Source: an uncultured Planctomycetia bacterium (lineage in GTDB: Bacteria > Omnitrophota > Gorgyraeia > 2-02-FULL-51-18). Taken from it: a stretch of DNA of 64,000 nt. The notes beneath the pieces were generated by a model. That model had not been told where the DNA came from, searched no databases, and saw only the letters and a program-made list of their open reading frames with translations. The stretch's first letter is position 1. The number at the start of each line of letters is the position of its first letter. The translations under genes were made by a program, and so were the position numbers. The DNA lies in NCBI GenBank assembly GCA_964642015.1, contig CAZXLF010000002.1:287678-351677 (forward strand), in the 5' to 3' direction. Positions 3,229 to 49,316 of this stretch are shown piece by piece.

Positions 3229-3229
3229 T

Positions 3230-34208: not shown

Positions 34209-34943
34209 GTGCGGACTGTCCGGCTGACAATCGGCTTTCAGGGCACCCGCTACGAGGGCTGGCAAAGTCAGAAAAAAGGCAATACAGTCCAGGAGATATT
34301 CGAGAAGTATCTCCAAAAGATCCTCAAAGAAAAAACAGATCTTATTTCAAGCTCCCGTACCGACAGCGGAGTCCATGCGCTGGGACTTGTCGCTCACTTC
34401 AGCACTTCATCCAAGCTTCCGGACCAAAAGATCAAACATGCGCTAAATTTTTATCTTCCGCGCGATATCGTGGTGCATTCGACTCAAACAGCGACCCACA
34501 GATTTCACGCGCGCTATCACGCCAGATCAAAGATCTACCGTTACGATATATACAATAAAAAAACTCGCCCGCTTTTTGAGGCGCCTTATGTGCTTTGGCA
34601 TCCGGATTTTTTGGATGTACGTGCAATGAGCAAAGCCGCCGTATATTTAAAAGGAAAACATGATTTCAGCACGTTCCATGATAAGGGGGATGATAAAAAA
34701 AGTTCCGTTCGCACGATCAAACGACTGACGATCAGGAGAACCAAAGGCCTTATCCGTATCGAGATCGAGGCTGACGGTTTTCTGCGGCACATGGTGCGTG
34801 TGATCGCAGGGACTTTGATTGAAGTCGGCCGAAAAAAGATCGCACCGGAGAAAGTGAAAGATATTCTTCATTCAAAGGACCGCTCCCAGGCCGGTCCAAC
34901 TGCCAAACCCCATGGCTTAATGCTCGTGAAGGTGAAATACTGA
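34209..34943 (+). CDS. truA: tRNA pseudouridine(38-40) synthase
   Basis: Catalytic Asp context SSSRTDSGVHALGLVAHF and RHMVRVIAGTL. 244 aa. GTG start. Confidence 0.85.
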   Translation: MRTVRLTIGFQGTRYEGWQSQKKGNTVQEIFEKYLQKILKEKTDLISSSRTDSGVHALGLVAHFSTSSKLPDQKIKHALNFYLPRDIVVHSTQTATHRFHARYHARSKIYRYDIYNKKTRPLFEAPYVLWHPDFLDVRAMSKAAVYLKGKHDFSTFHDKGDDKKSSVRTIKRLTIRRTKGLIRIEIEADGFLRHMVRVIAGTLIEVGRKKIAPEKVKDILHSKDRSQAGPTAKPHGLMLVKVKY

Positions 34944-35088
34944 CGGGGCATTTTTTCGCTTAACTTGTCTTTAGGAGCCTGCTAGCCATTCGGCACTTGG
35001 CAGCGAATCAACACATTTAAATCTATTTAAGCAAAACCTATCGGATGTTATATTATCAAAATAAATATGATTATTTATCAAATTCGGC

Positions 35089-35117
35089 TTGACAAAAGCG
35101 AAAGAGGCATGTAATCT
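35089..35117 (+). promoter_or_regulatory. sigma70-like promoter for the giant gene
   Basis: TTGACA (35089-35094), 17-nt spacer, TAATCT (35112-35117), in an AT-rich 225-nt intergenic region about 50 nt upstream of the 35169 start. Confidence 0.45.
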
Positions 35118-35168
35118 TCGATGCATGACCATCAAACACATTCAAGAAAGCCAACCCAGAGGACTTGA

Positions 35169-38100
35169 GTGATGAAAATAAAAACCCGCCTGATAGAGAA
35201 ATTATGTCTGAAAAGTGTCGCCGTTTCTTTGATCCTATCTTTTTCGTTCTCTCAGCTTGTTTGGGCCGTCGATGTGCGACAGATGATCCTGGATGCCGAG
35301 AGCTCATTTGACCAAGATACGCGCAGATCAGGAAATTTGACGCCGACGAATCTTACGACCGCTCAGACACAGGCCCAGACCACAGTTGACCAACAGCAAG
35401 CGCTGCAAGATCTGCAGAACACAAATTTCAGTCTCACCACCAAGAACGGGGATGTTCTCCAATACGTAGGGAATGTTTTAAACAAAGTACAGCGTCCTGA
35501 CGGTACTTTGCTGAACAATATACAAGTCGACGCCAATGGGAATATCACGAATGCCAACCTGAAACTTTCTGATGGATCTATTCAAATATTTCAAAATGGG
35601 CAGGTGATTGGCTACGGAACACCGGATGGAAACACGGTAGTTTATTCTGCCGGTCAAATTCAACAAGTCATATCCAAAACCGGCATCGTGACGAACTATT
35701 CCTATATCAAAGATTCGTTGGGCAATGTTATCGAGACAGATCTGGATAATACTTCCTATACCACTAAATACGACGCCAATAATAAGTTGAAAGAAGTTTA
35801 TGATAAGGTAGCGGGTTCAAGGACTACCTACACGAACGGCGTTATCCAAAAAACCGTTAAATCTGACGGAAGCCAGATCCTTTATAATAGTGCGGTCCAG
35901 CCCAATGGTGATATTATCGTCACACCCCCCAATTCCAATTCAAGCACTTATACCGATACCCAGGGCAATATTTTCACATTTATTTCCGGCAACGTTTCAA
36001 CAATAAAGCTTAAAGATGGATCTATTCTCGATAGCATTGTTTGGGACGCTTCCAATGCTGTTCAAAGTGCGAACCTCACGGCGGCGGACGGGACTAAATA
36101 TGTTTATCAAAATAAACAATTAACTCGTTCGACCGATCCAACAGGCGTGGTTACTAATTACACATACACATCAACAAATATTGTCGTTGCTTCAGCGGGA
36201 AGCACATGGGTTTATGATCCGAATAAAAATCCGATCTCTTATACGGATCTTTCAGGAAATACAACGACCTATCTTACGTCGGGTGCTTTTAAGGGTTTAA
36301 AAGACAGGGATATCTTGTCAACAGGTCAGACTTTTGTTTATGAATATTCGCAGAATTCTTCCGGCGTTATCTCGGTGCAAAAAAGAGAAGTCCATTTACA
36401 GACGTACAATGTGACTACTTATTCGGGAACGGCTCTTTTGGCTTCAAATAATCCCTATCTTTTATTCGACGCGCGATTTGAAAATGACAATAGCTTTGAT
36501 CCCAAGATCAGCGCCAGCGCCACTGGCACCGGCAAAAGTCTGGCTGTAAACCTAGTAGCGGGATCTACGGGGTCTAGTTTTACTTTCAATGGAGTGGTCA
36601 CTGCATTAAATGTGTCAGTCGCGAAAGGCACGACTTATAACGTAGAGATACGTTGGGAGACAGGCAGGATAGGCATTTATGTTTATCCCAAAGGGACGAC
36701 CCGACCTTCAACTCCCCAGGGTATCGTGACGGATCGAAGCTGGGACCCCACATTTAAATTTAGCGGCCAAAACGCATATGTCGGGTATACCTATGATTCC
36801 GCTACGTGGCCTTGGAGTCAACGGGGCGCGTTCAGTGTGGTCACTACATCCAACGCTCAGAGTTATGCTTATCTTCCGGGAACTCCGGCAGAAAAAATCA
36901 CTCTGAATTTAAATGGCAGTTATCAAGCTATTTCATTGACGACCAAGCAATATCTATCCGGAATTTACAGGACTATTACGTTCGGTTGGAATGCCAGTAA
37001 TAGTATTTGGAACACAAAAGTATCCGACTGGAATTCTTCGACGAATGTGACCACTATTGTTTCTACCGGCACCGTGGCTCAGACGCTGACCTCGGGCACG
37101 GATTATGTGTTTGACCTTAGGATCGAGGGCGCTTACTTGAACGGTTATGTTTATTTGAAAGGGCAAGCCAGACCGTCTACGCCCACATTGTCGGTATCAG
37201 CGCTGAGCGCCTCGACGGATTACGAGGCGATCGTGTGGGGCTCCGCTTCTACCAAGACCGAGCTTTATAAAAATCTGACAGCGCCGACTTACTCAGCGGC
37301 TGCTTTTCAGGCGAAGCCGGTGACCGCTCTGATCGATACAGTTAAAAATCTTACGATCACAAAACCCGCGGCGCCATCTTCGAATCCTACGGATTATTCA
37401 TCTATCACTTACAGTTCGGATTCAAAGATCAAACAAATAGTCAAGACCGACAACTCAAAATATATTTTCCAAAACGGCCTTTTAACGCAAGTGCTGGATC
37501 CTTCCGGAAATCCGACAAATTTCAATTTTACCCAAAGCATTTTTTCTAACATTACCGGCTCTGAGATTGTTCAAAATAATCTGGATTCAAAATATGACGG
37601 TTCGGGTAATCTGTCGCAGATAAAAATTAATGACATCACGATCCATTACCTGCCCGGCTCGACTCAGATCGATTACATCGAGAAAACCGACGGCACTCAG
37701 CTTCATAATTTGGTTTTCGATGCCTCGGGCAATATTATAGGCGCGGACATCACCGCGCCAACGGGGGAGATAAGAAGTTATCAAAACGGCCAGCTTATTG
37801 ATCTGACGCAAACGGATAATTCGCAGATCTTTTATGCGAATGCCAAACCTTTGAAGATAGTCACGCCGGATAAGCTGACTTACAATTTCGACTACACGAC
37901 GCCGAATATCGTTCAAGCGGTCTTGGATCCCTCGATTGTACCCTCCGACGCGCTTACTCCGGTAAAGATGCAGTATGACACAAATTTTAATCTGACAAAA
38001 GTTATCCGGCAGAATAATCAGATCTTGAATTATTTAAACAATAGTTTGACCGAGATCGATGCACCCTCTGCGGCGCCGCAGATCTTTGCTTATCAGAAAG

Positions 38101-41100
38101 ATGCAAATGGGAATATTCTTTCTTACACGGTGACACAGGGGAACATAGTGACCACCTATGATCCGAACAATAATCCGGTCAGCGCTGTGGTTAACCCAAC
38201 GTCGGATAACCCTCATACGTTGGCAGCGGCTTATCAATACGGAAAGATCCGTCAGATCAAAAAGGACGGTGTTGTGACCTTCAATTATACTTATGCATTC
38301 GATGCGTCAAACAATGAAATAACACAGGTTGACGACCTGGAAGAAAACACTTTCAGAACTTATCAGAGCGGAAATCTTGTGACTTCGCTCGATAGGAGCA
38401 CCTCTTTATTATCCACTTACGTTTATGTCGGCGGTCAGGTTTCTCAGGTCCAGGTTTCACGCCTGGGAAGGAATTTGCATATTTACAATTATAGTTATAG
38501 CGGCGGAATGACGGTTGTGACGGACGACGAGGGAACGATCCGGACTTATGATGCCAATAAACAGCTTTTGTATCTTGAAAAGAATGGACAAAAATTCCAG
38601 TATATTTACACAACTTCCACCAAGACGAATCCTATAACGATACAAACCGTTCTGCCTGTGACTACGCTCAGTCAGGTTTCTCAAAGTACGGGCTCTAATT
38701 CCTGGCAGCAGTGGCAAGTCAATTCTTCAGAAGGTTCTTTGGGTATCGCTTCTTGGGGATGGGTGACGTACAACGCGACGCTTTCGCAGGCGTCGGACTT
38801 AAAAATAGAATTTGATTCCTCAAATTTCAGCGGCAATGTGCCGTCGGGGTATCAATTCAATCTGGACATCGCCGTTGACGGAGTATCAAAGACCCAATAT
38901 TGGACTCCTGTCGTTGTTGCCGGTTGGACGGCCAATTCATTAACGCTGACCGGTCTGAGCTCCGGTACGCACGCGGTCAAGATCACCTGGCTCAATGATT
39001 ATTACGTCGCGAATCAATACGATGCTAATTTTAAATTCCGTAATCTCAAGATGACGCAGATCAACACGACGACCACGACGACCAGTGACCCGATCACGCA
39101 AGAGAACTTGATCGAACAAAAGCTTTCCGACGGTTCGGTCGCTCATTATAGCAATGGGGCCATTTCTTCAATTACGAGACCGGATGGTTCAGTGATATCA
39201 GACCTTACGCTTGATTCGAACGGCCAGGTTACAAAAGGGACCGTCACTTTGTCTAATGGCATCAAAAAAATATTTAATGGCACTTCTATTTTGGAAGAGA
39301 TCGATCCTGATGGAACGCACTTTTATTTTTCCAATAACGAAATTTCCAAAGTCGTTGATACTTTGGGTAAGACATTCAATTACACTTACGACACAGATGC
39401 CGCCGGAAATGTGATAGATGCTTGGCTGGATTCCGGGAGCGGAGCGTTATTAAAATACGATCCGAACGGAAATTTGCTCGGGTTTAAACCGAATAATCTG
39501 TCTCCTTATATCAATGGTCAGGTGAGTTTCAGTGATTCAAGCAGTGCTCAATATGCGATCACCAGATCCGCAACCGCGCGTTTGGATGCCGGACTTCCTG
39601 TTTTTGGATCTGGCTCGGCTTATTTTGACGGAACAAGTTATCTATCGGTCCCGCATACTGGTGATTGGGATTTTGGGACAGGCGATTTTACGGTAGATTT
39701 TCAGGCAAGATTTCGCGATACAACCTCCACCCAAGCTTTATTCTCGATCGGTGATTATGCGTCCAATGGTTTGACGCTTTACTATACAAACGGGAATTTA
39801 AATATCCATATTAACAGTGCCGCCGTTAGCAAGTCCATCGCATGGACGCCCGTCCAGAACCAGTGGTATCACTTTGCTTTGGTGCGCACGGGCGCTGCCG
39901 TAAAATTATTCGTTAATGGCACTCAAGCCGGAACAGATCTTACAAATTCATCAAATATATCCGGTTCGGCAACCGGCGTATATATCGGAGCGCTTTACAG
40001 CGGCGGCACCGGAAATTATTTGAATGGAAATATTGATGAATTCAGGATATCAAAAGGTATCGCGCGTTGGACGTCCAATTTCACTCCGTCGACTCAAGCC
40101 TACACGGCGGATAGTAACGCAAAGCTTTTGCTGCATTTCGACGGTACAGAGGACAAATATTTTTATAAGTTCAATGTCCAGAAAGACGCTTCCGGAAATC
40201 TTACAGGATATTCTTTTGACGGAGCCGGAGGAAAAATGTCTTATGATGCCCAGGGAAATTTTATTTCTACGACATTGAGTTCTTCTGACCCCGGTCTGAC
40301 GTATTTTGCCGATTCCAGTCTGACCAAATATACCTCGATGCCCTTTGGGAATGTGCATCTGGATCCTACTCAATCTAAGCTGGGTTCATCGTCGGTGCTT
40401 TTTGACGGTTCAAGTTATATTGCCGTTCCAAATAGTGATGACTGGGACCTTGGGACCGGAGATTTTACGATAGACAGCTTTGTGAAGTTTAAAAGCACGG
40501 CCGGTACTCAGTGGCTTGCGCAGATCGGTAATTACAGCTCTCACGGGGTCGGTCTTTATTTTGTATCCAATACGATCTATGCGCATGTGACAAGCTTGAC
40601 CTACACCTTGTCGGCGGCCTGGACGCCCAGCGTAAACACTTGGTATCACGTAGCGTTGCTGAGAAGCGGATCGGCGCTGAATATCTACATCAACGGGGTG
40701 CAGCTCCCCGGAACGTCTAATTCGACAAATGTCACCGGAGTGACTGAAGGTGTCGGTGTCGGCGGTTCCAGCATCATGAATTCTTTTAATGGTTGGATGG
40801 ACGAATTCAGGATATCAAAAGGCCTCGCGCGTTGGACGGGGAATTTCACTCCGCCCACTCAACCGGATGTCGCGGACAGTTACACGAAACTTCTGATGCA
40901 TTTCGAGGATCAGGTGAGTGCGGATCTTTCCGGTATTTCGCAAAGCATGTCAGTCGTCAAATCGTCTACGATCACGCTGCCTTATAAATTGGTGCTCACT
41001 AATTTTTTGCCTGATGTGACCGCATGGTACGGGGATGCGCAGACGGCTTTACTTGATAACCAAACCGTTATAGCCAATGAATATTCTTCGGATGGCACGC

Positions 41101-44100
41101 TTCAAACTCAGACGAAAGCCGATGGGACTGTGACGCTATTTGACAATAACAAACCCTCCGAAGTTTTGAGTGCTGCCGGAGCGATCCTGATCCAATACAG
41201 TTATGACGCTGACGGAAATCCTTCGAGAGTCTATCTCAAAAATGCGCGCGACACCTTGCCGGAGGAGGTTTTAAAAGCCAAGCAATCCATCGAGCAGCAG
41301 CGCGCCTCATCTCTTCAGGCTCTTGCCGCTCAGAAAAATCTCGCATACCAATCGATCCAGACCCAAGTACAAGCTCAGAGGCAAGCGCTGCAGCAAAATC
41401 TAACCGATCTTCAAAATCAATATAATCAAGTCGCCAATACGCCCGCCAGCGGCAAAAGCGCCAAAAATGCCAGAGGCAATGTTTTAAATCAGATCGGCAC
41501 TCAAATGGATCTGGTGCGTTCCGCTCTGGTCACTTCATATCAGCAGGAGGCCGATGCCTATGCCGCGCTTGATGCGCAGGTGAAAGCCTCATCCGACAAA
41601 ATAGAAGCAGATTCACAGAGCGCTTTCACGGCACTCGCCACCCAAGAGGCGAATTTAAAGCAGCAGATCCTTCAGCAGGAAGTTTCGCCGATCGTTTATG
41701 ATTATTATCGCCGTTTGTTGGGCCGTGACCCTGCGACTATGGAATACAACTCTTGGATTGGAAAGGTCGATTATTCCTCAGGCAACACATTTGTAGAAGT
41801 AAAGACCACTGACGGCTCGCTCCTTACCGCGGCACTCAAGTCATCGATCAATTCTTCGCAGGAGCTCATTGACCGGCAGACTTACGTTCAAAATATCAAG
41901 AATGCTGTTACTTCATCGATCAACAGTTATCTGGCGATGACTCAAGCCAATCAACAGGCATTTGCCGCTTCGCTGGGATTATCAACGAACGACGTAATCA
42001 ATCTCACGTCGAGTGACGCCCAGAAAATTTTGACATGGCTTAATTCACGTTCGTTACATTTCGGACAGTCGGCTTTCTTATCTCTCGAATCACTCCTTGA
42101 CCAGAAGGGCATCACATATGACCGCCAGGATCTCGCCAAAAAATGTATCCTGGTCGATGTTCTCTCGGGAGTGATCACACCTTTGGATGATGGGGACCTT
42201 GTGATCTCGGTATTTGCGTTGAATAAAGTCGCCTCACTGTATGGCACGGGGCTTACCGCCGCCAATGTCAGTTACGACGATCTTTTAAGTTTATATGTCT
42301 CTCAGCCGACGGCACGCACGATCGCGCACATCAACGGTGATCATTTTGTGGTCATTACGGCTGTAACCAAAGACAACGTTACCTATATTGATCCCGGCAA
42401 AGGGGTGGATAAGCAAAATGAATCCGTGACGGTCTCCAAGATGGATTTTATGAAAACATTCAAAGGCAACGTGACTTTAGACAATTCAAAAGCGCAAGCT
42501 ATTGCGAATATTTCTTCCAAAACTCTATCGGTCGAACAGACTAAGAAGATCCGTGGAGCGTTTTTACCGCTTCTTATTGCAGCGATCTTCAGCGCGATCT
42601 CGTCCATTGGAAGCGCGGTTTTCGCGGTCGCCAACGGTATAGGGACTATCATTGCCGGCGTCGGCACGATTGTAAGCGGCGCTTTGAATGGCATCGGCCA
42701 GGCACTTTCTATTTTGGGGCAGAACCTGTCCTATATCGGCCAGGCGGTTTTTAACGGGATCAAATTTGCCGCGAGTACGATCTATAACCTTGGAAGTCAG
42801 ATCTTCGCGTCTTTTGCGGGCCAGACGCTTTTCCCGAGCTTGACGCAAGTGAGCTTCGGCAGCCAGCTTTTCCAGACTGCCGTAAATATTGGCGTTAATT
42901 TCGCCACGCAAAAAGGCCTTGATGCATTGGGCATAAATCCTCAGATCGCAAGTCTGGCTTCCGCATTTGTATCGGGAGGAACCGTCGGAAGTTTCAATAG
43001 CGGATTTAACGCGGCAAATTTCATCCAAAATGGGATCAAGACGCTTGCTTTAGTCAGTTCTCAAACACTGCTTCAGCGCGTGGGCCTCGACGCAAATCTT
43101 TCTTCAACGCTTTCTTTGATCGTGAGCCCGCTGGTGAATGGCATTCAGTCAGGGAATATCGGCGGTAGCCTTGTCAAAATAATCCCTGACCTGACAAAGA
43201 ATCTCTCGCTTTACGGAGTGGATAAATTAGGCACAAGCTTGGGTCTGGATGCGGGGATCTCATCCTTGGCCGGAGTTTCGCTGGTCAATGGGCTAAACGC
43301 GGCGTTTGGGGGAGGAACGAACGTTGGGCAGAGTGTTATCCAATCGATCCAAAGCGGACTAACTCAAGGCATCGTTCAATATGGATTGAATTTTGTAGGA
43401 AACTCAAACCCTATATTTGGTTCTTTGTTGAGTAGTGATATGGCTAAAAATATCGAGCTTGCGATTGGACGCGACGGATTATTTCAAACTGTATTCAATG
43501 TTCTCCAAAATACCGTATTGAATGCGGTGAATGTTGTTGGGGGAACGGTCCAATCGATCTTTACAGGCATCACTGATTTTGGTTCGCTCATCCAGCAAAA
43601 AGGTCTGCCCGGAGCTTTGCAGTATTATCTGAATTCCGTATTTAGTCGGAATACTCAAGAGACGATCCTGGCAGAAGGCGGGATACAATCAATATTCAAC
43701 AACACCGCGAAGACCGCGACTACACTGCCCGACGGAACAGCGGGTCAAGAGCTTAAGATCAGCGACTCGGCGTCATTGCTGTTTGATAATGCAGGAAATC
43801 TGAAAGGTAAAAAAGAAAACGGTGTTATTGAGTTAGGAACTTTCGGATTGGACTCTACGGGCAAATTTGGCCTTACAGCCGGACAGGTGACAGCTGTGTT
43901 GGCGCCGGACCTTAATTTAAGCGCACAAGTAAATGGCGGACAACTACAAACCGCGAGCGTCAAAGGTTCGGATGGGACTTCTGTTGTGGATATAAATCCA
44001 GAAAACACTAATCAACCGATTTATATCGAAGGCCCACAAACACAAACCTCAAACGCATCCCAGTCGTTTGATTTTTGGGGGGCGGTGTTGAAGCTTGTTC

Positions 44101-45230
44101 CGTATGGACTTTCTTTATGGTTAGGGGATGCTTCGGTCCAAGCTGCCCAGCAGACAGCTAGCCCTAATACAACAATACAGTCGATACAAGATTCTACTCG
44201 ATTAGTTTATGCGTTAGCCAATGGCATAGCGAATCCTAATAGTGACGAAACAAAAGCCCCAGACTATATACAAAATCTGGAGCAAAATCTTAAAAACCAG
44301 GGTAATGGTCAGATATCAGATTCAGATTTGCTACCTATTCCTCTTTATCAACATTTATTTCAGTTTACACATATTAATCAGAGCATAGATGCAATTAAAT
44401 GGATTATGGAATCGCAGGACCCGACAGTCCATGGAACGCTTGTGAATCAAGCGTTTGATAATCTACACAACTTCTTTTGGAAGAACGGCCTAGACCCTTA
44501 TTATATGCAACGGCCAATTGTGGGTATGGGATATTCAGGCGGATTTATGCCGCTCGTGGAAGCAATAGCAGCGACAGGGGGTATTTATAATTTCAAATCT
44601 CTAGTCGCCTTAGGTGCAGCCACCATTAGTTTGAGTCAAGACTTGGCAGACGCTGTCGTCAAGACCATTCAATATATTGAACAGGTCCAGGTAAGCGATA
44701 TTGCAAAAAACTTTGGTTTAATATTCGGTTCCGCAAGCAACATCATTCAGCAATTTATTAACGATGTGCAAAATAATTTAATTGACCCAGCGTTTACTTT
44801 GCTGGAGAATCAACTTGAAAGTATCACTCGGCAGAGCGACCCTAATAACGTTGAAAATTTACCAGATCTTTCCAATACGAATGTCCAACAGATAGTGAAC
44901 GTTTGGGGTACAAAAGATATCCTAGCTCAGACAGGTATTGGGGGACAAAAAAGCGCACTATGCGGACTATCAGGACAAAAATTAATTAATGTCGAAATTG
45001 TTGGCGCGACGCATTTTGACTATATGTTGCGCGGTGCAAATGATCCAAATCTACCAGACACTTGGAACTATAATGTAAGCAATTTTGTGACGGCGTTAAT
45101 TCGGAACAGTGATAATTCTAGTGATTTAAACGGATTCTTAGCTCAACAACAGAGTATAAATGTGACTTTTTTTGATAGCACACGCCAAGTATGGGTTGTT
45201 AAACTATCTGGCTGGGAGAGTCATCAATGA
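35169..45230 (+). CDS. giant secreted multidomain protein (3353 aa). Domains in order: signal peptide, YD/Rhs-like beta repeats, two tandem LamG/ConA-like domains, Gln-rich coiled coil, DUF4214-like motif, C39-like peptidase-like domain, long Gly/Ala/Ser-rich hydrophobic segment, C-terminal GxSxG alpha/beta-hydrolase-like region
   Basis: A single uninterrupted 10,062-nt ORF. Signal peptide MMKIKTRLIEKLCLKSVAVSLILSFSFSQLVWA. Recurrent YxYDxxGN-type repeats (NYTYAFDASNNEI, NYTYDTDAAGNVI, QYSYDADGNPS). Duplicated ~160-aa modules FDG(T/S)SY(L/I)(S/A)VP..DWD(F/L)GTGDFT(V/I)D...WYH(F/V)AL(V/L)R(T/S)G(A/S)...DEFRISKG(I/L)ARWT(S/G)NFTP, LamG-like. YDYYRRLLGRDPATMEYNSWIGKV (DUF4214-like). HFVVITAV...YIDPGKG (C39 His motif). 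PIVGMGYSGGFMP...WGTKD...GATHFDYM (Ser-Asp-His order). Confidence 0.8.
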   Translation: MMKIKTRLIEKLCLKSVAVSLILSFSFSQLVWAVDVRQMILDAESSFDQDTRRSGNLTPTNLTTAQTQAQTTVDQQQALQDLQNTNFSLTTKNGDVLQYVGNVLNKVQRPDGTLLNNIQVDANGNITNANLKLSDGSIQIFQNGQVIGYGTPDGNTVVYSAGQIQQVISKTGIVTNYSYIKDSLGNVIETDLDNTSYTTKYDANNKLKEVYDKVAGSRTTYTNGVIQKTVKSDGSQILYNSAVQPNGDIIVTPPNSNSSTYTDTQGNIFTFISGNVSTIKLKDGSILDSIVWDASNAVQSANLTAADGTKYVYQNKQLTRSTDPTGVVTNYTYTSTNIVVASAGSTWVYDPNKNPISYTDLSGNTTTYLTSGAFKGLKDRDILSTGQTFVYEYSQNSSGVISVQKREVHLQTYNVTTYSGTALLASNNPYLLFDARFENDNSFDPKISASATGTGKSLAVNLVAGSTGSSFTFNGVVTALNVSVAKGTTYNVEIRWETGRIGIYVYPKGTTRPSTPQGIVTDRSWDPTFKFSGQNAYVGYTYDSATWPWSQRGAFSVVTTSNAQSYAYLPGTPAEKITLNLNGSYQAISLTTKQYLSGIYRTITFGWNASNSIWNTKVSDWNSSTNVTTIVSTGTVAQTLTSGTDYVFDLRIEGAYLNGYVYLKGQARPSTPTLSVSALSASTDYEAIVWGSASTKTELYKNLTAPTYSAAAFQAKPVTALIDTVKNLTITKPAAPSSNPTDYSSITYSSDSKIKQIVKTDNSKYIFQNGLLTQVLDPSGNPTNFNFTQSIFSNITGSEIVQNNLDSKYDGSGNLSQIKINDITIHYLPGSTQIDYIEKTDGTQLHNLVFDASGNIIGADITAPTGEIRSYQNGQLIDLTQTDNSQIFYANAKPLKIVTPDKLTYNFDYTTPNIVQAVLDPSIVPSDALTPVKMQYDTNFNLTKVIRQNNQILNYLNNSLTEIDAPSAAPQIFAYQKDANGNILSYTVTQGNIVTTYDPNNNPVSAVVNPTSDNPHTLAAAYQYGKIRQIKKDGVVTFNYTYAFDASNNEITQVDDLEENTFRTYQSGNLVTSLDRSTSLLSTYVYVGGQVSQVQVSRLGRNLHIYNYSYSGGMTVVTDDEGTIRTYDANKQLLYLEKNGQKFQYIYTTSTKTNPITIQTVLPVTTLSQVSQSTGSNSWQQWQVNSSEGSLGIASWGWVTYNATLSQASDLKIEFDSSNFSGNVPSGYQFNLDIAVDGVSKTQYWTPVVVAGWTANSLTLTGLSSGTHAVKITWLNDYYVANQYDANFKFRNLKMTQINTTTTTTSDPITQENLIEQKLSDGSVAHYSNGAISSITRPDGSVISDLTLDSNGQVTKGTVTLSNGIKKIFNGTSILEEIDPDGTHFYFSNNEISKVVDTLGKTFNYTYDTDAAGNVIDAWLDSGSGALLKYDPNGNLLGFKPNNLSPYINGQVSFSDSSSAQYAITRSATARLDAGLPVFGSGSAYFDGTSYLSVPHTGDWDFGTGDFTVDFQARFRDTTSTQALFSIGDYASNGLTLYYTNGNLNIHINSAAVSKSIAWTPVQNQWYHFALVRTGAAVKLFVNGTQAGTDLTNSSNISGSATGVYIGALYSGGTGNYLNGNIDEFRISKGIARWTSNFTPSTQAYTADSNAKLLLHFDGTEDKYFYKFNVQKDASGNLTGYSFDGAGGKMSYDAQGNFISTTLSSSDPGLTYFADSSLTKYTSMPFGNVHLDPTQSKLGSSSVLFDGSSYIAVPNSDDWDLGTGDFTIDSFVKFKSTAGTQWLAQIGNYSSHGVGLYFVSNTIYAHVTSLTYTLSAAWTPSVNTWYHVALLRSGSALNIYINGVQLPGTSNSTNVTGVTEGVGVGGSSIMNSFNGWMDEFRISKGLARWTGNFTPPTQPDVADSYTKLLMHFEDQVSADLSGISQSMSVVKSSTITLPYKLVLTNFLPDVTAWYGDAQTALLDNQTVIANEYSSDGTLQTQTKADGTVTLFDNNKPSEVLSAAGAILIQYSYDADGNPSRVYLKNARDTLPEEVLKAKQSIEQQRASSLQALAAQKNLAYQSIQTQVQAQRQALQQNLTDLQNQYNQVANTPASGKSAKNARGNVLNQIGTQMDLVRSALVTSYQQEADAYAALDAQVKASSDKIEADSQSAFTALATQEANLKQQILQQEVSPIVYDYYRRLLGRDPATMEYNSWIGKVDYSSGNTFVEVKTTDGSLLTAALKSSINSSQELIDRQTYVQNIKNAVTSSINSYLAMTQANQQAFAASLGLSTNDVINLTSSDAQKILTWLNSRSLHFGQSAFLSLESLLDQKGITYDRQDLAKKCILVDVLSGVITPLDDGDLVISVFALNKVASLYGTGLTAANVSYDDLLSLYVSQPTARTIAHINGDHFVVITAVTKDNVTYIDPGKGVDKQNESVTVSKMDFMKTFKGNVTLDNSKAQAIANISSKTLSVEQTKKIRGAFLPLLIAAIFSAISSIGSAVFAVANGIGTIIAGVGTIVSGALNGIGQALSILGQNLSYIGQAVFNGIKFAASTIYNLGSQIFASFAGQTLFPSLTQVSFGSQLFQTAVNIGVNFATQKGLDALGINPQIASLASAFVSGGTVGSFNSGFNAANFIQNGIKTLALVSSQTLLQRVGLDANLSSTLSLIVSPLVNGIQSGNIGGSLVKIIPDLTKNLSLYGVDKLGTSLGLDAGISSLAGVSLVNGLNAAFGGGTNVGQSVIQSIQSGLTQGIVQYGLNFVGNSNPIFGSLLSSDMAKNIELAIGRDGLFQTVFNVLQNTVLNAVNVVGGTVQSIFTGITDFGSLIQQKGLPGALQYYLNSVFSRNTQETILAEGGIQSIFNNTAKTATTLPDGTAGQELKISDSASLLFDNAGNLKGKKENGVIELGTFGLDSTGKFGLTAGQVTAVLAPDLNLSAQVNGGQLQTASVKGSDGTSVVDINPENTNQPIYIEGPQTQTSNASQSFDFWGAVLKLVPYGLSLWLGDASVQAAQQTASPNTTIQSIQDSTRLVYALANGIANPNSDETKAPDYIQNLEQNLKNQGNGQISDSDLLPIPLYQHLFQFTHINQSIDAIKWIMESQDPTVHGTLVNQAFDNLHNFFWKNGLDPYYMQRPIVGMGYSGGFMPLVEAIAATGGIYNFKSLVALGAATISLSQDLADAVVKTIQYIEQVQVSDIAKNFGLIFGSASNIIQQFINDVQNNLIDPAFTLLENQLESITRQSDPNNVENLPDLSNTNVQQIVNVWGTKDILAQTGIGGQKSALCGLSGQKLINVEIVGATHFDYMLRGANDPNLPDTWNYNVSNFVTALIRNSDNSSDLNGFLAQQQSINVTFFDSTRQVWVVKLSGWESHQ

Positions 45231-46003
45231 AAAAACCGATAGTATTAACAGCCCTTTCTTTAATGACAACCTTTATCTTTAGTCATCATCTTTGTGCTGA
45301 TAATAAGAATCAGAATGGTAAACCGATCTATACCGTTGTTGGCGGACAAGGTTTAACACCTTTTCCGAATAATGAAAATACGAGGAGAATTATTAAAAGA
45401 ACTGACTTAATTCGAGAAGGCAATAAATTGGCCCATTCAGCTTTATATGATCAGGCTATAATAAAATTCCAAGAAGCAATGGATCCTTCTTTGTTTAATG
45501 ATCCAAGAGATGAGGCAGAAGGGCGTTATGGAATAATGAAGGCACGTATACGTCAGAGCAGATTTAAAGATGCCCTTAATGAGAATCAATGGTTTATCCA
45601 AAAATTTGGTCTTAATGAAAGCAATAAAGAAACGCGCCAGGAAATATTGGCTCTAATTGATTTTCAGACGACAGGCACAGCCAAATTTATTTATAACCAT
45701 GTTGAGAGTTTAAAGAATAAATATTCCGATCAACTTCCGCCTCGAAATTTTGTTGGCAACGGGCCTATAGTTTCGTCGGAAATTATTCATCTTTACGATT
45801 ACATTAACGATTCAGATAAGGCAATCGCGTTTCTAAATGAGTTTTTGACTTATCTAAAAAAACGCAGCAATGCTAGCAATTCCGACAAATCAGAAATTGC
45901 CGAATACGAAGCTGCCAAGCAAGCCTTCAAAGAGGATAAGCAGACTGGCCTAAAAGGCCATCTTCAAAAAGTTATAGCAACTTCAGAGTATATTGGGTGG
46001 TGA
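45227..46003 (+). CDS. hypothetical secreted protein translationally coupled to the giant gene (candidate immunity/accessory protein)
   Basis: Its ATG overlaps the giant-gene TGA (ATGA). N-terminal signal peptide MKKPIVLTALSLMTTFIFSHHLCA. 258 aa, helical-looking, no enzymatic motifs. Confidence 0.55.
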   Translation: MKKPIVLTALSLMTTFIFSHHLCADNKNQNGKPIYTVVGGQGLTPFPNNENTRRIIKRTDLIREGNKLAHSALYDQAIIKFQEAMDPSLFNDPRDEAEGRYGIMKARIRQSRFKDALNENQWFIQKFGLNESNKETRQEILALIDFQTTGTAKFIYNHVESLKNKYSDQLPPRNFVGNGPIVSSEIIHLYDYINDSDKAIAFLNEFLTYLKKRSNASNSDKSEIAEYEAAKQAFKEDKQTGLKGHLQKVIATSEYIGW

Positions 46004-46143
46004 ATTTAATCGCATAATCGCATACCGGACGCAGTCCGGAAGGGAAGCCTTAGATAATTAAAGATGCCTATGAAAAAGAGATTAGCCCTTAAATTCGATC
46101 CAAATTATGACCAACCGTTGCAAGAGCCATAAAATTCAAATAA

Positions 46144-46554
46144 TCACTTATTTTCCAGCAACGAATGAGGATTCCCCTGAGCATCCGTGTAATGAATGAA
46201 CGGCGTTTCATCCGCGCCGGAATAATTTAGTCCGATCACCATTTTGTCGGAGCCGTTCTTATCCTTAAATATCAATAATGGCGAAGCATCCGGTCCGGCA
46301 AGACGCAGAAGCAGACGTATATGTTCGCTGGCATCGGAAAGGCCGATAAGCGGTTGGCCTTCTTCGCCGGCGCTGGGGTAAGTGCCCATTTGCAGGCGAT
46401 ATTTTCCGTCCTGAGCATATATCCAAAGCTGGTCCGCTTGAAGGATACGCGGTTCGGCATGGACCGATTGCACCGGGAAAAAGTAATGTGAAGCCAATCC
46501 TCCGAATAAGCCGGTCATGAACATCAGAAAAAATCGAAAGGTTTTCTTTGACAC
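46144..46554 (-). CDS. hypothetical small membrane-anchored/periplasmic protein
   Basis: 136 aa, N-terminal hydrophobic helix (FRFFLMFMTGLFGGLASHYFF). Transcribed divergently from the next gene. GGAGG RBS upstream. Confidence 0.45.
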   Translation of the reverse strand: MSKKTFRFFLMFMTGLFGGLASHYFFPVQSVHAEPRILQADQLWIYAQDGKYRLQMGTYPSAGEEGQPLIGLSDASEHIRLLLRLAGPDASPLLIFKDKNGSDKMVIGLNYSGADETPFIHYTDAQGNPHSLLENK

Positions 46555-46642
46555 AGGGACCTCCTTTTGTTTTTAGGATACAGCTTCCTGATGTTGACGC
46601 CAAGAACTTTTCCTTGCGAATTGCCGATCCGTCCATTAATTT

Positions 46643-48028
46643 ATGATTATGCCCAAGCGTCTGGCGATCTTATTTTTCTTATTAATTTCCTCAGCCAATG
46701 TTTATGCCGACTCATCTGCACCCACCGCTTTGGACGCTTACGTCCGCACACCCGACGAACATTTCAATTATTCCTTGCAGAAGACCGTGCGTGGAAATGG
46801 CTACACGACCTATGTGATAAATCTGACGTCCCAGCAATGGTTGACCAAAGAACAGGTCGATCGTCCGATCTGGAGACATTGGCTTACGATCATCGAACCG
46901 GACAAAGTACGCAGTAATAAAGCACTGCTCCTTATCTACAGCGGTATTTACGGCGCCTTGGAAAAAGGAATGATGGAGAAAATAGCGCAGGATACCGGTT
47001 CGGTCGTGGCATGTGTCGAGCCGCTTCCGGAGATGCCGCTTACTTTTACCGACAAAAATGGAAAGAGCGGCCAATTGGCTGAAGATACGCTTATCGCCGA
47101 CAGTTGGGCACGATATTTGAGGACCGGTGACACAAAGCGCCTGGTGCGATTACCGATCGTAAAAAGCGTTGTCAGCGCAATGGACGCGGTGAGCCGGTTT
47201 TGCGCCAATGACGCCGATCATAAGATAACCGTCGATCAATTTGTGCTTGCGGGCCAATCCAAGCGCGGATGGGCCGTGTGGCTTGCGGCATCGGTGGATA
47301 AGAGGGTGGTCGCGGTTATTCCCATGGTCATCGATATATTGAATGTCGTACCCTCATTGAAGCATCAGTACGAATCTTACGGACACTGGGAAGAAGCGAT
47401 GGGAGACTATGAGAGCGCGGGAGTTTTAGGTCAAATAAACGCGAAGCAATTCGCGGAATTAATAAAGATCGAAGACCCTTATTCCTATAAAGAGCGTTTG
47501 ACAATGCCGAAATATATCATTAATTCAGCTGACGATGAATTTTTCCCTCCGGATTCTTCGCGATTTTACTTTGATGACCTTTTGGGTGAAAAATATTTGA
47601 GGTATGTGCCGAATAGCAGCCACCACTTGTATGGAACAGATGTGATGCGGTGTGTTGAGTCGTTTTATTGGTCGATTCTTGAAGGGAAGGTGAGACCGCG
47701 GTTTTCGTGGAAGATCCAAGCCGATGGATCCATACGACTTCTAGTGATAGATAAACCTTTGAAGGTGAAGCTCTGGCAGGCCACCAACCCTGAAGGGCGC
47801 GATTTCCGGCTTCACGTCGTCGGAAACGCTTGGACGAGCAAAGAGATCTCTGAAACGGGACCGGGCGTTTATATCGGCAGTGTGCCTGCACCCGCGAAAG
47901 GTTGGACAGCATTTTTTTTGGAGCTGACCTATAATAATGGAGATGGTTCGACTCCGCTTAAATTCACCACTTCTGTGAGCGTGGTGCCGGATAGAATGCC
48001 GTTTGAGTATCGCGAGAATTCACAATAA
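46643..48028 (+). CDS. secreted alpha/beta-hydrolase-like protein resembling the PhoPQ-activated pathogenicity-related (PqaA-type) family
   Basis: Signal peptide MIMPKRLAILFFLLISSANVYA. N-terminal ALDAYVRTPDEHFNYSL...YVINLTSQQWLT...WRHWLTIIEP resembles my recollection of that family's conserved N-region. GQSKRGW is a nucleophile-elbow-like motif. Assignment from memory only. Confidence 0.4.
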   Translation: MIMPKRLAILFFLLISSANVYADSSAPTALDAYVRTPDEHFNYSLQKTVRGNGYTTYVINLTSQQWLTKEQVDRPIWRHWLTIIEPDKVRSNKALLLIYSGIYGALEKGMMEKIAQDTGSVVACVEPLPEMPLTFTDKNGKSGQLAEDTLIADSWARYLRTGDTKRLVRLPIVKSVVSAMDAVSRFCANDADHKITVDQFVLAGQSKRGWAVWLAASVDKRVVAVIPMVIDILNVVPSLKHQYESYGHWEEAMGDYESAGVLGQINAKQFAELIKIEDPYSYKERLTMPKYIINSADDEFFPPDSSRFYFDDLLGEKYLRYVPNSSHHLYGTDVMRCVESFYWSILEGKVRPRFSWKIQADGSIRLLVIDKPLKVKLWQATNPEGRDFRLHVVGNAWTSKEISETGPGVYIGSVPAPAKGWTAFFLELTYNNGDGSTPLKFTTSVSVVPDRMPFEYRENSQ

Positions 48029-48566: not shown

Positions 48567-49316
48567 ATGTTAGAAGGTTTAATAGGTAGGACGGCGATAG
48601 TTACGGGCGGGAGCCGTGGCATAGGCAAAGCTATCGTCTTGGATTTAGCCCGAAACAAAGTAAATGTGGCATTTAATTATGTTGCCAGCAAAGACGCTGC
48701 CGATGATGTTGTCGCTGAGGTTGAGAAATTGGGAGCAAAGACTCTTGCTGTTAAGGCGGACGTGAAAAACCCTGATCAAGCCAAATTATTTGTGGATGAA
48801 GCAAAAAAGAAATTCGGAAAGATAGATTTTTTAGTTAATAACGCGGGAATTTTAAAGGATAAAACCTTGATGTTTATGTCTGACGCGGATTGGAAGGATG
48901 TGATTGAAACAAACCTATATGGATCCTTTGTGTTAACGCGTCTTATGATCATGAGCTTTCTCAAGCAAAATAGCGGAGGCATTGTAAATATTTCTTCGAC
49001 TGCCGGTTTGATTGGAAATGCCGGCCAGGTGAATTACAGCGCTAGCAAAGCCGGGCTTATTGGTTTTACGAAGGCGCTTGCAAAAGAAGTGGCTTCTTAT
49101 GGGGTGAGAGTAAATGCGGTGGCGCCAGGATTTATTGAGACAGATATGGTTAAAACTATTCCCGAAAATAAGATGCAAGAAGCTGTAAAAACAATTCCCA
49201 TGCAGCGTCTTGGAAAGCCGGACGAAGTTGCTAAAGTTGTTACGTTTTTACTTTCCGAAGAGTCTGCGTACATCACGGGCCAGGTACTGCCTATTGATGG
49301 AGGGCTGGCCATTTGA
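48567..49316 (+). CDS. fabG: 3-oxoacyl-[acyl-carrier-protein] reductase (SDR family)
   Basis: TGGSRGIGKAI (NAD(P) binding), NNAG, catalytic S...YSASKAG, PGFIETDM. 249 aa. Confidence 0.85.
   Translation: MLEGLIGRTAIVTGGSRGIGKAIVLDLARNKVNVAFNYVASKDAADDVVAEVEKLGAKTLAVKADVKNPDQAKLFVDEAKKKFGKIDFLVNNAGILKDKTLMFMSDADWKDVIETNLYGSFVLTRLMIMSFLKQNSGGIVNISSTAGLIGNAGQVNYSASKAGLIGFTKALAKEVASYGVRVNAVAPGFIETDMVKTIPENKMQEAVKTIPMQRLGKPDEVAKVVTFLLSEESAYITGQVLPIDGGLAI

What the first reader, a model, noticed from the sequence alone, without database searches (positions are those of the whole stretch)
44400..45230. C-terminal putative alpha/beta-hydrolase (lipase/esterase-like) module of the giant protein
The sequence contains the nucleophile elbow G-Y-S-G-G (PIVGMGYSGGFMPL), then WGTKD and GATHFDYM in Ser...Asp...His order. 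This is the linear order of alpha/beta-hydrolase catalytic triads. It is the last domain before the coupled secreted partner gene, which is where polymorphic toxins place their effector domain.
Basis: inference. Interest (0 to 1): 0.6.

Follow-up and report, generated by a model that had tools for sequence, protein, structure and literature searches.

The report
Serine-hydrolase toxin tip with immunity partner
The last 345 residues of a 3353-residue secreted protein, probably from an Omnitrophota bacterium, form a previously unannotated lipase/esterase-like enzyme domain that behaves like the swappable toxic tip of a polymorphic toxin, and it is always followed by its own secreted partner (probably protective) gene.

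Summary
GYSGG, WGTKD and GATHFDYM are present, in frame, at the C-terminus of the ORF at 35169-45230. Across the family the residues are nearly invariant: Ser 79/80, Asp 116/117, His 132/133, plus an upstream Asn-Gly 63/63.

The AlphaFold model (pLDDT 87.8, pTM 0.89) has canonical alpha/beta-hydrolase topology, with each triad residue at its textbook position. 49 of the 50 best Foldseek PDB hits are alpha/beta hydrolases. These matches are distant (best E 6.7e-4, TM 0.3-0.46), and no Pfam, NCBIfam or PDB sequence model matches. The true domain is 44193-45227, about 70 residues longer than reported.

The polymorphic-toxin reading is supported, but not in Rhs form. Eighty related giant genes share a trunk (C39-like domain plus a glycine-rich hydrophobic region). 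Homology breaks near window aa 2925-2977. After the break, 44 genes carry this hydrolase and 36 carry unrelated tails in about 20 clusters. Each tail type has its own tightly coupled downstream gene. Orphan tip+partner cassettes exist.

The partner here is a signal-peptide TPR protein. Relatives are almost all Omnitrophota MAGs.

Verdict: a new alpha/beta-hydrolase effector family on an undescribed delivery scaffold. Activity, substrate and immunity are inferred, not shown.

The parts
35169..45230 (+). Giant ORF of 3353 aa. It has an N-terminal Sec-type signal peptide (aa ~1-34), a YD/RHS-like repeat region (aa ~80-1450), two Laminin_G_3 domains (aa ~1478-1664 and ~1729-1915), and then the conserved C-terminal trunk and tip.
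   Evidence: ORF list and translation. Pfam: Laminin_G_3 2.6e-25, RHS_repeat 1.5e-8, Peptidase_C39 6.5e-7. Hydropathy of the N-terminus.
41031..44033 (+). Conserved 'trunk' (aa ~1955-2955) shared by all related giant proteins. It comprises a coiled-coil/Q-rich region, the C39-like domain, the Gly-rich hydrophobic region and a linker. Homology to relatives with other tails ends at aa ~2925-2977.
   Evidence: phmmer of the giant protein against 30+ giant relatives gives one contiguous match q~1950-3350. Breakpoint mapping in 80 loci.
41979..42476 (+). C39-like papain-fold domain (aa 2271-2436). An invariant Ser (HFGQSAF) sits where C39 peptidases have the catalytic Cys, and the invariant His is retained.
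   Evidence: Pfam PF03412 29.7 bits. The family profile hits the PCAT1 peptidase domain 7n87 at E 1.5e-5, with the His aligned. Invariant columns H28 F29 S32 H123. The Ser/Cys equivalence is my manual register, not a computed alignment.
42546..43718 (+). Glycine-rich, low-charge hydrophobic region (aa 2460-2850). Two strong TM-like helices lie at aa 2463-2510. Putative membrane-insertion/translocation segment.
   Evidence: Kyte-Doolittle scan and composition: 27 charged residues in 396. Conserved in relatives. The function is inferred.
44034..44192 (+). Start of the variable C-terminal region: a hydrophobic helix (FDFWGAVLKLVPYGLSLWL, aa 2966-2985) and a linker ahead of the hydrolase domain.
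   Evidence: Breakpoint analysis. Alignment A1. The orphan cassette in L050 begins with about 45 aa homologous to this junction.
44193..45227 (+). Alpha/beta-hydrolase-fold domain (aa 3009-3353, 345 aa). The order is strand-NG, strand, strand-Ser-helix, strand, 4-helix lid, strand-Asp, strand-His, then two helices and a C-terminal beta-hairpin.
   Evidence: AF2 models. Foldseek PDB. Family alignments A1 and A3.
44220..44225 (+). Invariant Asn-Gly (aa 3018-3019) at the end of the first strand. Candidate oxyanion-hole motif, in the position of the HG motif of classical alpha/beta hydrolases.
   Evidence: 63/63 conserved. Position after strand 5-9 of the model. The role is inferred.
44535..44537 (+). 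Candidate nucleophile Ser3123 in G-Y-S-G-G (the nucleophile elbow).
   Evidence: 79/80 conserved. It is the first residue of helix 115-127, directly after strand 109-114.
44637..44834 (+). Four-helix lid/cap insertion (domain residues 149-214) between strands 6 and 7. It is absent from the lid-less subfamily.
   Evidence: Secondary structure of the model. Split HMM matches 5-145 and 223-337 in class B loci. Ser-Asp spacing is 112-149 versus 47-81.
44916..44918 (+). Candidate acid Asp3250 in N-V-W-G-T-K-D.
   Evidence: 116/117 conserved. It lies in the loop after strand 233-239.
45012..45014 (+). Candidate base His3282 in G-A-T-H-F-D-Y.
   Evidence: 132/133 conserved. It lies in the loop after strand 264-269.
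45227..46003 (+). Cognate partner gene (258 aa). It has a signal peptide (aa 1-24), two TPR repeats (aa ~61-128, nt 45407-45610) and a helical C-terminal extension ending in ...SEYIGW. Its start overlaps the giant gene's stop (ATGA). Putative periplasmic immunity protein.
   Evidence: Sequence. It is found directly downstream of the hydrolase domain in 15 of the first 17 loci fetched (L001-L017) and in 37 of the 80 giant genes analysed by domain. TPR: 22/26 members hit TPR_2, and the profile hits consensus TPR proteins with per-repeat E ~4e-9.

Best explanation
Nt 44193-45227 encode a catalytically competent Ser-Asp-His alpha/beta-hydrolase domain, most like lid-bearing lipases and carboxylesterases. 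It is the exchangeable C-terminal effector ('toxin tip') of a Sec-exported giant surface protein of an Omnitrophota-type bacterium.

The proposed mechanism has four steps:
1. The N-terminal YD-repeat and LamG modules extend from the cell and bind a target cell surface (inferred).
2. The conserved trunk (coiled coil, C39-like domain, long glycine-rich hydrophobic segment) anchors, processes and/or delivers the tip to a membrane (inferred).
3. The hydrolase attacks an ester-linked envelope component, most likely membrane lipid, from the periplasmic/extracytoplasmic side (inferred).
4. The translationally coupled downstream gene makes a signal-peptide TPR protein that binds and neutralises the hydrolase in the producer's own periplasm, i.e. 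a cognate immunity protein (inferred).

What is shown: the motifs and their conservation; the fold class and triad topology; strict C-terminal placement; the trunk/tail breakpoint; tail diversity; one-to-one covariation of tail type and downstream gene; orphan cassettes; the signal peptide and TPR nature of the partner.

What is inferred: enzymatic activity, substrate, toxicity, immunity and delivery route.
For: Motifs and conservation.

Fold: AF2 pLDDT 87.8, pTM 0.89, with pLDDT 90-94 in the ten-residue blocks around the three residues. Foldseek gave 50/50 and 49/50 top hits as alpha/beta hydrolases, with probability up to 1.00.

Placement: in every one of 65 relatives that cover the whole domain, it ends within 0-23 residues of the C-terminus.

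Trunk and tails: the ~1400-aa C-terminal module is contiguous and conserved while the N-termini vary. In 80 giant genes analysed (loci found through the C39-like domain or the hydrolase domain), 23 had the long hydrolase, 21 the lid-less hydrolase and 36 unrelated tails. The unrelated tails fall into about 20 clusters. One is Peptidase_C92 and one has a GHSAG motif. Homology to the window stops at aa ~2925-2977 in those 36.

Cognate partners: almost every giant ORF is followed by a small ORF starting within about 60 nt before to 30 nt after its stop codon. The small-ORF clusters coincide exactly with the tail clusters. Hydrolase partners carry signal peptides or lipoboxes. Several partners of other tails do not.

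Lid/partner covariation: lid-bearing hydrolases pair with long partners ending in ...SDYFPW, and lid-less ones pair with short partners.

Orphan cassettes: L050 6136-8135, behind a Y1-type transposase, keeps about 45 aa of trunk-junction homology. L006 7913-8811 is a second example.

Precedent: alpha/beta-hydrolase toxin domains (Tox-ABhydrolase-1/2/3) and repeat-type immunity proteins are described for polymorphic toxins (PMC3482391).
Against: No biochemical or genetic evidence exists. Triad distances could not be measured because no coordinates are returned.

Structural similarity to solved hydrolases is weak (best E 6.7e-4, TM 0.3-0.46). There is no sequence-level link to any known lipase or toxin family.

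The partner and the other downstream genes match no curated immunity family. TPR and HEAT proteins can equally be chaperones.

The window locus sits among housekeeping genes, with no secretion-system or mobile-element genes nearby, and there is no orphan cassette in the window.

The hydrolase tail is the majority state (44/80). The system is therefore less 'polymorphic' than CDI or Rhs systems, and that sample was biased by the search patterns used.

The target could be prey or host cells rather than competitors, or a non-lipid ester.
Confidence: 0.68

Rival explanations
1. Lipase plus dedicated foldase. The hydrolase is a genuine secreted lipase/esterase. The downstream secreted helical protein is a steric chaperone needed to fold or activate it in the periplasm, like LipA/Lif in Pseudomonas and Burkholderia. 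On this reading it is not an immunity protein.
For: The partner is exported, helical (TPR) and translationally coupled directly downstream. Partner length covaries with the presence of the lid, which fits a protein that embraces the enzyme. From established knowledge, lif genes sit directly downstream of lipA. P. glumae lipase 1tah is among the fold hits.
Against: No match to Pfam Lipase_chap for any of 26 partners. Unrelated tail types each have their own downstream gene, several without a signal peptide. Orphan tip+partner cassettes are typical of toxin-immunity modules, not of foldases.
Confidence: 0.12
2. Predation or nutrient-acquisition enzyme rather than an inter-bacterial toxin. The giant protein is a prey-attachment or degradative surface machine of a predatory or epibiotic Omnitrophota cell. 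The esterase digests prey envelope or polymer esters. The partner is a regulator or self-protection factor.
For: Relatives are almost all Omnitrophota MAGs. Giant Omnitrophota proteins have been proposed to act in predation and cell-wall degradation (bioRxiv 10.1101/2023.11.21.568195; 10.64898/2026.06.07.730766). The N-terminal adhesin-like YD/LamG modules fit this.
Against: This does not by itself explain the tail-specific cognate downstream genes or the orphan cassettes. It overlaps heavily with the best explanation, differing only in the target.
Confidence: 0.15
3. Cis-acting anchoring or processing module. The alpha/beta-hydrolase acts on the giant protein itself or on the producer's envelope, for example as an acyltransferase or esterase that attaches or releases the protein. 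It is not an effector.
For: It sits strictly at the C-terminus, next to a hydrophobic segment and a peptidase-like domain.
Against: 36 of 80 related trunks carry unrelated tails of many types, including a C92 amidase. That is not expected for an essential anchoring module. The cognate secreted partner is also unexplained.
Confidence: 0.05

Closest known systems
Alpha/beta-hydrolase toxin domains of polymorphic toxin systems (Tox-ABhydrolase-1/DUF2235, -2, -3; Zhang et al. 2012, PMC3482391)
   Same: A Ser-hydrolase-fold domain at the extreme C-terminus of a large multi-domain secreted protein, followed by a cognate small gene. Standalone or orphan cassettes are present. A lipid target is predicted.
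   Different: No sequence match to any Pfam or NCBIfam model. N-G stands in place of the usual H-G oxyanion motif. It is carried on a different trunk (C39-like plus Gly-rich hydrophobic region), not on Rhs-core, HINT, VENN or T6SS/T7SS scaffolds. It is found essentially only in Omnitrophota.
T6SS lipase effectors Tle1-5 with periplasmic Tli immunity proteins (established knowledge; e.g. Russell et al. 2013)
   Same: A GxSxG serine lipase effector paired with an adjacent immunity gene whose product carries a signal peptide or lipobox and acts in the periplasm. Some Tli proteins are helical-repeat (Sel1/TPR-like) proteins.
   Different: There are no T6SS genes or PAAR/VgrG/MIX modules here. The enzyme is fused to a 3000-aa Sec-exported protein. 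No sequence similarity was detected.
Lid-bearing carboxylesterases and monoacylglycerol lipases (FphH 8tav, human/bacterial MGL, Est30 1tqh)
   Same: These are the best structural matches. They share the six-strand core, the nucleophile elbow, a helical cap inserted after strand 6, and Ser-Asp-His order.
   Different: Only 9-16% identity, TM 0.3-0.46, E no better than 6.7e-4. The domain has an extra C-terminal two-helix plus beta-hairpin extension and lacks the N-terminal beta1-beta2 hairpin.
Rhs/YD-repeat polymorphic toxins
   Same: YD repeats in the N-terminal region, a variable C-terminal tip, and orphan tip-immunity cassettes that retain junction homology.
   Different: No RHS core (TIGR03696) or DPxGL autoproteolysis motif was detected. 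About 1500 residues of LamG, coiled-coil, C39-like and hydrophobic sequence separate the repeats from the tip, so shell encapsulation of the tip is not supported.
Giant proteins of Omnitrophota (Archaeovorins and the PF03412-containing long-protein group; bioRxiv 10.1101/2023.11.21.568195 and 10.64898/2026.06.07.730766)
   Same: The same phylum. Very long secreted or membrane proteins with C39-like domains and TM segments. A role in attacking other cells has been proposed.
   Different: In term searches of their main text, neither paper uses 'lipase' or 'esterase'. The 2026 preprint also lacks 'polymorphic' and 'immunity'; the 2023 preprint was not searched for those terms. This protein (3353 aa) is far below the >=30,000-aa class studied there.

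Membership tests
Alpha/beta-hydrolase fold superfamily | Central, mostly parallel beta-sheet flanked by helices, in the order strand-helix-strand | tested here: met
   AF2 model with pLDDT 87.8 and pTM 0.89 has six strands alternating with helices. 49/50 and 50/50 top Foldseek PDB hits are alpha/beta hydrolases.
Alpha/beta-hydrolase fold superfamily | Nucleophile in a G-x-S-x-G 'elbow' between a strand and the following helix | tested here: met
   G-Y-S-G-G. The Ser is the first residue of helix 115-127, directly after strand 109-114. Ser is 79/80 conserved.
Alpha/beta-hydrolase fold superfamily | Acid after strand 7 and His after strand 8, in linear order Nu-acid-His | tested here: met
   Asp242 follows strand 233-239 and His274 follows strand 264-269. 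Conservation is 116/117 and 132/133.
Alpha/beta-hydrolase fold superfamily | The three triad residues are within hydrogen-bonding distance in 3D | not testable with these tools
Named lipase/esterase families (Pfam Abhydrolase_*, Lipase_*, DUF676, PGAP1, DUF2235/Tle1, etc.) | Significant match to the family HMM | tested here: not met
   No alpha/beta-hydrolase family was hit by the window domain or by any of 30 relatives, even at E<=10. NCBIfam gave none. Profile searches against PDB sequences gave none.
Polymorphic toxin systems (sensu Zhang/Aravind 2012) | Conserved N-terminal/trunk region with diverse, unrelated C-terminal domains among homologues | tested here: met
   Of 80 giant genes analysed, 44 carry hydrolase tails and 36 carry unrelated tails in about 20 clusters. 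The homology breakpoint is at window aa ~2925-2977.
Polymorphic toxin systems (sensu Zhang/Aravind 2012) | An immunity gene immediately downstream that is specific to the toxin domain type | tested here: inconclusive
   The coupled downstream ORFs cluster exactly as the tails do. Immunity function was not tested, and no curated Imm family matched.
Polymorphic toxin systems (sensu Zhang/Aravind 2012) | Standalone or orphan toxin-tip plus immunity cassettes that could recombine with the main gene | tested here: met
   L050 6136-8135 has a full tip with about 45 aa of junction homology plus its own partner, behind a Y1 transposase. L006 7913-8811 has a tip fragment plus a second partner. None is present in the window itself.
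Rhs/YD toxins | RHS core domain with an autoproteolytic DPxGL motif directly preceding the toxin tip | tested here: not met
   Only weak RHS_repeat/YD_repeat_2x hits, at aa ~316-337. No RHS core model matched. The tip is about 1500 aa away from the repeats.
Lipase-specific foldase (Lif, Pfam Lipase_chap) for the partner | Match to the Lipase_chap model, and an N-terminal membrane anchor | tested here: not met
   Lipase_chap is not among the 25 listed families (of 52 matched), which members of the partner family matched at E<=1; the top matches are TPR families. A signal peptide or anchor-like N-terminus is present.
Peptidase C39 (for the trunk domain) | Catalytic Cys and His of the papain-like fold | tested here: inconclusive
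   The His is conserved and aligns with the catalytic His of PCAT1. No Cys is present; by manual register, an invariant Ser occupies the expected position.

The most novel reading that the evidence does not exclude
The domain is one cargo of a previously undescribed, Omnitrophota-specific polymorphic effector system. In it, Sec-exported giant YD/LamG proteins share a delivery trunk, and tips are exchanged by recombination with orphan cassettes. The trunk comprises a coiled coil, a Cys-to-Ser C39-like domain and a ~400-aa glycine-rich membrane-insertion segment. Behind it sit swappable enzymatic tips (this lid-bearing serine hydrolase, a lid-less version, a C92 amidase and about 18 unknown folds), each with a compartment-matched immunity gene. 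This could be the contact-dependent weaponry of these ultra-small, putatively predatory bacteria.
Probability: 0.45. Interest if true: 0.75.

Novelty: new variant of a known kind. Interest (0 to 1): 0.6.

Why it matters
Omnitrophota are uncultured, often ultra-small bacteria thought to prey on or parasitise other microbes. Their very long proteins are a current puzzle.

This locus gives a concrete and testable handle. It has a clearly delimited catalytic tip with three predicted active-site residues and a cognate secreted partner. Its family shows the tip-exchange genetics of polymorphic toxins on a trunk not described before.

It adds a new, unannotated alpha/beta-hydrolase family of 162 sequence clusters at 50% identity, with no Pfam model.

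It also suggests that part of the 'C39 long-protein' group noted in Omnitrophota surveys consists of toxin-delivery proteins.

Alpha/beta-hydrolase toxins with periplasmic immunity proteins are already a known kind, so the principle itself is not new.

Tried and rejected
- Pfam and NCBIfam scans of the domain, the whole protein and 30 relatives found no hydrolase family.
- Profile searches against PDB sequences with 9- and 30-sequence alignments returned only spurious helical-bundle hits on the lid.
- The search for homologous proteins with the C39-like plus Gly-rich region returned nothing, because low-complexity words saturated the 8000-candidate list. One of the three searches was lost this way.
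A 9-sequence alignment worked.
- The third protein search, with the 30-sequence profile, added only 'hypothetical protein' entries without Pfam domains.
- The promoter/terminator scan of 34800-46700 was no better than shuffled sequence.
- A search for extra hydrolase or partner copies or fragments in the window found none.
- The classical Rhs-encapsulated toxin reading was rejected: there is no RHS core, and the repeats are far from the tip.
- The pseudo-enzyme reading was rejected because the triad is nearly invariant.


Full report
**1. The observation**

The window contains one very long ORF, 35169..45230 on the + strand (3353 aa).

The candidate residues are:
- Ser aa 3123, nt 44535-44537
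- Asp aa 3250, nt 44916-44918
- His aa 3282, nt 45012-45014

The next ORF (45227..46003, 258 aa) starts with ATG overlapping the TGA of the giant gene (ATGA). It begins with a typical signal peptide.

**2. Is it more than chance?**

A first protein search with the last 345 residues found eight relatives at 33-46% identity. None had a Pfam domain. In their alignment, G-Y-S-G-G, W-G-T-x-D and G-x-x-H-x-D-Y are invariant.

An exhaustive profile search of 1.84 billion cluster representatives found 162 proteins with E<=0.001, of which 66 had E<=1e-30. Where the protein is complete, the match always lies at the extreme C-terminus of a protein of 2200-7079 aa.

Aligned to the profile, conservation is as follows:

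| Residue | Conserved |
|---|---|
| Ser | 79/80 |
| Asp | 116/117 |
| His | 132/133 |
| Upstream Asn-Gly | 63/63 |

This is the pattern expected of catalytic residues, not of a chance GxSxG.

**3. Fold**

No sequence model recognises the domain:
- Pfam and NCBIfam give nothing for the window domain.
- Pfam gives no hydrolase family for any of 30 relatives, even at E<=10.
- Profile searches of all PDB sequences give only spurious matches of the helical insertion to designed helical bundles.

AlphaFold2 with a 9-sequence alignment gave pLDDT 79.5 and pTM 0.81. With a 30-sequence alignment it gave pLDDT 87.8 and pTM 0.89.

The secondary-structure order, in domain numbering, is:
- strand 5-9, followed by N10-G11
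- helix 24-36
- strand 46-49
- helices 63-105
- strand 109-114, followed immediately by Ser115 at the start of helix 115-127
- strand 134-140
- four helices 149-214
- strand 233-239, followed by Asp242
- strand 264-269, followed by His274
- helices 290-322
- a beta-hairpin 324-337

This is the canonical alpha/beta-hydrolase core from beta3 to alphaF. The nucleophile is on the elbow after beta5. A cap is inserted after beta6. The acid follows beta7 and the histidine follows beta8.

Foldseek against the PDB returned alpha/beta hydrolases for 50 of 50 (first model) and 49 of 50 (second model) top hits. They include S. aureus FphH (8tav, E 6.7e-4, probability 1.00), human and microbial monoacylglycerol lipases, Est30, the strigolactone esterases D14/KAI2, P. 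glumae lipase and Legionella PlaB.

**4. What carries it**

The giant protein contains, in order:
- a signal peptide
- sparse YD/RHS-type repeats
- two Laminin_G_3 domains
- a Q-rich coiled-coil stretch
- a weak Peptidase_C39 match
- a 396-residue Gly/Leu/Ser/Ile/Ala-rich region with only 27 charged residues and two strong TM-like helices
- a linker
- the hydrolase domain

Comparison with more than 30 giant relatives shows that aa ~1950-3353 is one contiguous conserved module, while the N-terminal repeat and LamG content varies.

A genome scan places the family almost entirely in Candidatus Omnitrophota MAGs: 9 of 14 loci. Most of the rest are labelled uncultured bacterium or Planctomycetia, plus one Gammaproteobacteria MAG.

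The genes around the window locus are housekeeping genes: GlmU-like, ThiG, an isocitrate/isopropylmalate dehydrogenase-family gene (Iso_dh), Asd and TruA upstream; a PhoPQ_related protein, FabG and KAS genes downstream.

**5. Is the tip exchangeable?**

I scanned metagenome contigs with the C39-like domain of the trunk (171 relatives, best 80 kept). For each locus I asked what lies at the C-terminus. The 80 giant genes analysed come from these loci plus some of the genome loci.

In all cases the ORF ends roughly 500-1500 residues (mostly 780-1270) after the C39-like domain. The tails differ:

| Class | Number | Tail |
|---|---|---|
| A | 23 | Long, lid-bearing hydrolase |
| B | 21 | Divergent, lid-less version of the same domain (Ser 20/20, His 20/20, Asp 17/20) |
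| C | 36 | No detectable relation to the hydrolase, even by iterated search |

The class C tails fall into about 20 clusters. One is a Peptidase_C92 (NlpC/P60-type) domain. One has a different GHSAG motif. The rest have no Pfam match.

Homology of these proteins to the window protein stops at window aa ~2925-2977, leaving 220-500 unrelated residues. This defines a trunk/tip junction near nt 44030.

**6. Cognate downstream genes**

Almost every giant ORF is followed by a small ORF that starts within about 60 nt before to 30 nt after its stop codon. Clustering these small ORFs reproduces the tail clusters exactly. All hydrolase tails (A and B) go with one partner family (37 loci). Each multi-member class C cluster goes with its own downstream family.

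The hydrolase partners all begin with a signal peptide or lipobox. Several class C partners have none. That is what one expects if the protective protein sits in the compartment where its toxin acts.

The hydrolase partner family contains two TPR repeats. 22 of 26 members hit TPR_2, and the family profile hits consensus-TPR structures with per-repeat E about 4e-9.

Lid-bearing hydrolases (Ser-Asp spacing 112-149) pair with long partners of 239-293 aa, which usually end in a conserved ...SDYFPW. Lid-less hydrolases pair with short partners of about 150-210 aa that keep only the TPR part. This suggests the partner's C-terminal half contacts the lid.

Other tails are followed by TPR, HEAT or DUF6966 proteins, or by proteins with no match.

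**7. Orphan cassettes**

In L050 the complete giant gene and its partner are followed by a Y1/IS200-type transposase. After that comes a 421-aa ORF consisting of about 45 residues homologous to the trunk-tip junction plus a complete, divergent hydrolase domain, followed by its own partner gene.

L006 has a 42-residue hydrolase fragment followed by a second partner copy. L001 and L002 have an N-terminally truncated hydrolase ORF plus partner next to Y1 transposases.

One contig, Ga0209515_10000257, carries two giant genes with different tails.

These are the genetic hallmarks of polymorphic toxin loci. The window itself has no orphan copy.

**8. Interpretation**

The best-supported reading is that nt 44193-45227 encode an active Ser-Asp-His hydrolase. 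It serves as the exchangeable effector tip of a giant exported protein, and 45227-46003 encodes its cognate periplasmic TPR immunity protein.

A lipid or ester substrate at the periplasmic face of a membrane is the most likely target, for three reasons. The closest folds are lid-bearing lipases and esterases. The partner is exported. The T6SS Tle/Tli lipase-immunity pairs and the Tox-ABhydrolase toxins of polymorphic systems are precedents (PMC3482391; Tle/Tli from established knowledge).

How the tip reaches a target is unknown. The conserved hydrophobic segment and the C39-like domain are the obvious candidates for membrane insertion and processing. The C39-like domain has an invariant Ser at the expected Cys position and a conserved His aligned to the catalytic His of PCAT1. 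This step is inference only.

**9. Rivals**

- A lipase/foldase (Lif-like) pair would explain an exported helical partner that covaries with the lid. It does not explain the other tails with their own, sometimes cytoplasmic, partners, nor the orphan cassettes.
- A predation or degradation role is compatible with everything except that it does not require immunity. It differs from the best explanation mainly in the target.
- A cis-acting anchoring role is unlikely, given that 36 of 80 trunks carry other tails.
- A pseudo-enzyme is excluded by the conservation.

**10. Known or new**

Alpha/beta-hydrolase toxin tips with adjacent immunity genes are a known kind. This domain matches none of the existing families.

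In term searches of their main text, neither of the two papers that survey long Omnitrophota proteins uses 'lipase' or 'esterase'. The 2026 preprint also has no occurrence of 'polymorphic' or 'immunity'; the 2023 preprint was not searched for those terms. The 2026 preprint mentions only a 24-protein PF03412 architecture group. A literature search for 'polymorphic toxin' together with 'Omnitroph...' found nothing relevant.

I therefore rate it a new variant of a known kind, with moderate-to-good interest.

Noticed in passing
window 41979-42476 (aa 2271-2436): The C39-like domain has a family-invariant H-F-G-x-S-A motif. By manual register it puts an invariant Ser where C39 peptidases have the catalytic Cys. 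The invariant His aligns with the catalytic His of the PCAT1 peptidase domain (7n87, E 1.5e-5). It could be a Cys-to-Ser papain-fold peptidase or an inactive C39-like domain.
   Followed up: partly
window 42546-43718 (aa 2460-2850): A 396-residue Gly/Leu/Ser/Ile/Ala-rich stretch with only 27 charged residues and two strong TM-like helices at aa 2463-2510. It is conserved in all relatives. It is a possible membrane-insertion or translocation segment. It also saturated the word index of the protein search.
   Followed up: partly
L050 5476-8135: An orphan cassette. A Y1/IS200-like transposase is followed by a 421-aa ORF (about 45 aa of trunk-junction homology plus a complete divergent hydrolase domain) and its own partner gene, all downstream of a full giant gene with its partner.
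   Followed up: yes
L006 7913-8811: A 42-residue fragment of the hydrolase C-terminus is followed by a second, divergent copy of the partner gene, directly after the first partner.
   Followed up: partly
L034 and L041 (both on contig Ga0209515_10000257): Two giant genes of this family lie about 16 kb apart on one contig and have different tails. One tail has a different GHSAG-type motif and is followed by a HEAT-repeat protein. The other is a lid-less hydrolase of the family studied here.
   Followed up: partly
L068 tail (last ~200 aa of the giant ORF ending at 13342): An alternative C-terminal tail matches Peptidase_C92 (a permuted papain-like amidase, YaeF/YiiX; E 7.8e-7). It is followed by a 128-aa ORF with a hydrophobic N-terminus.
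   Followed up: no
Partner family, C-terminus (window 45986-46000; A6 columns 401-410): Long partners end in a strongly conserved C-terminal motif, ALIQSDYFPW-COOH (SEYIGW in the window). It is present only when the hydrolase has the lid. It may plug or clamp the enzyme.
   Followed up: partly
L014 4092-6208: In this locus the end of the hydrolase domain is altered and no partner gene is present. An IS110-like transposase gene lies on the opposite strand immediately downstream, suggesting that an insertion disrupted the cassette.
   Followed up: no
window 46643-48028: Two genes downstream lies a strong PhoPQ_related protein (PF10142, E 2e-113). It is followed by FabG-like and two beta-ketoacyl synthase genes (48567-51759) and an amine-oxidase-like flavoprotein (52160-53626). 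No link to the giant gene was established.
   Followed up: no
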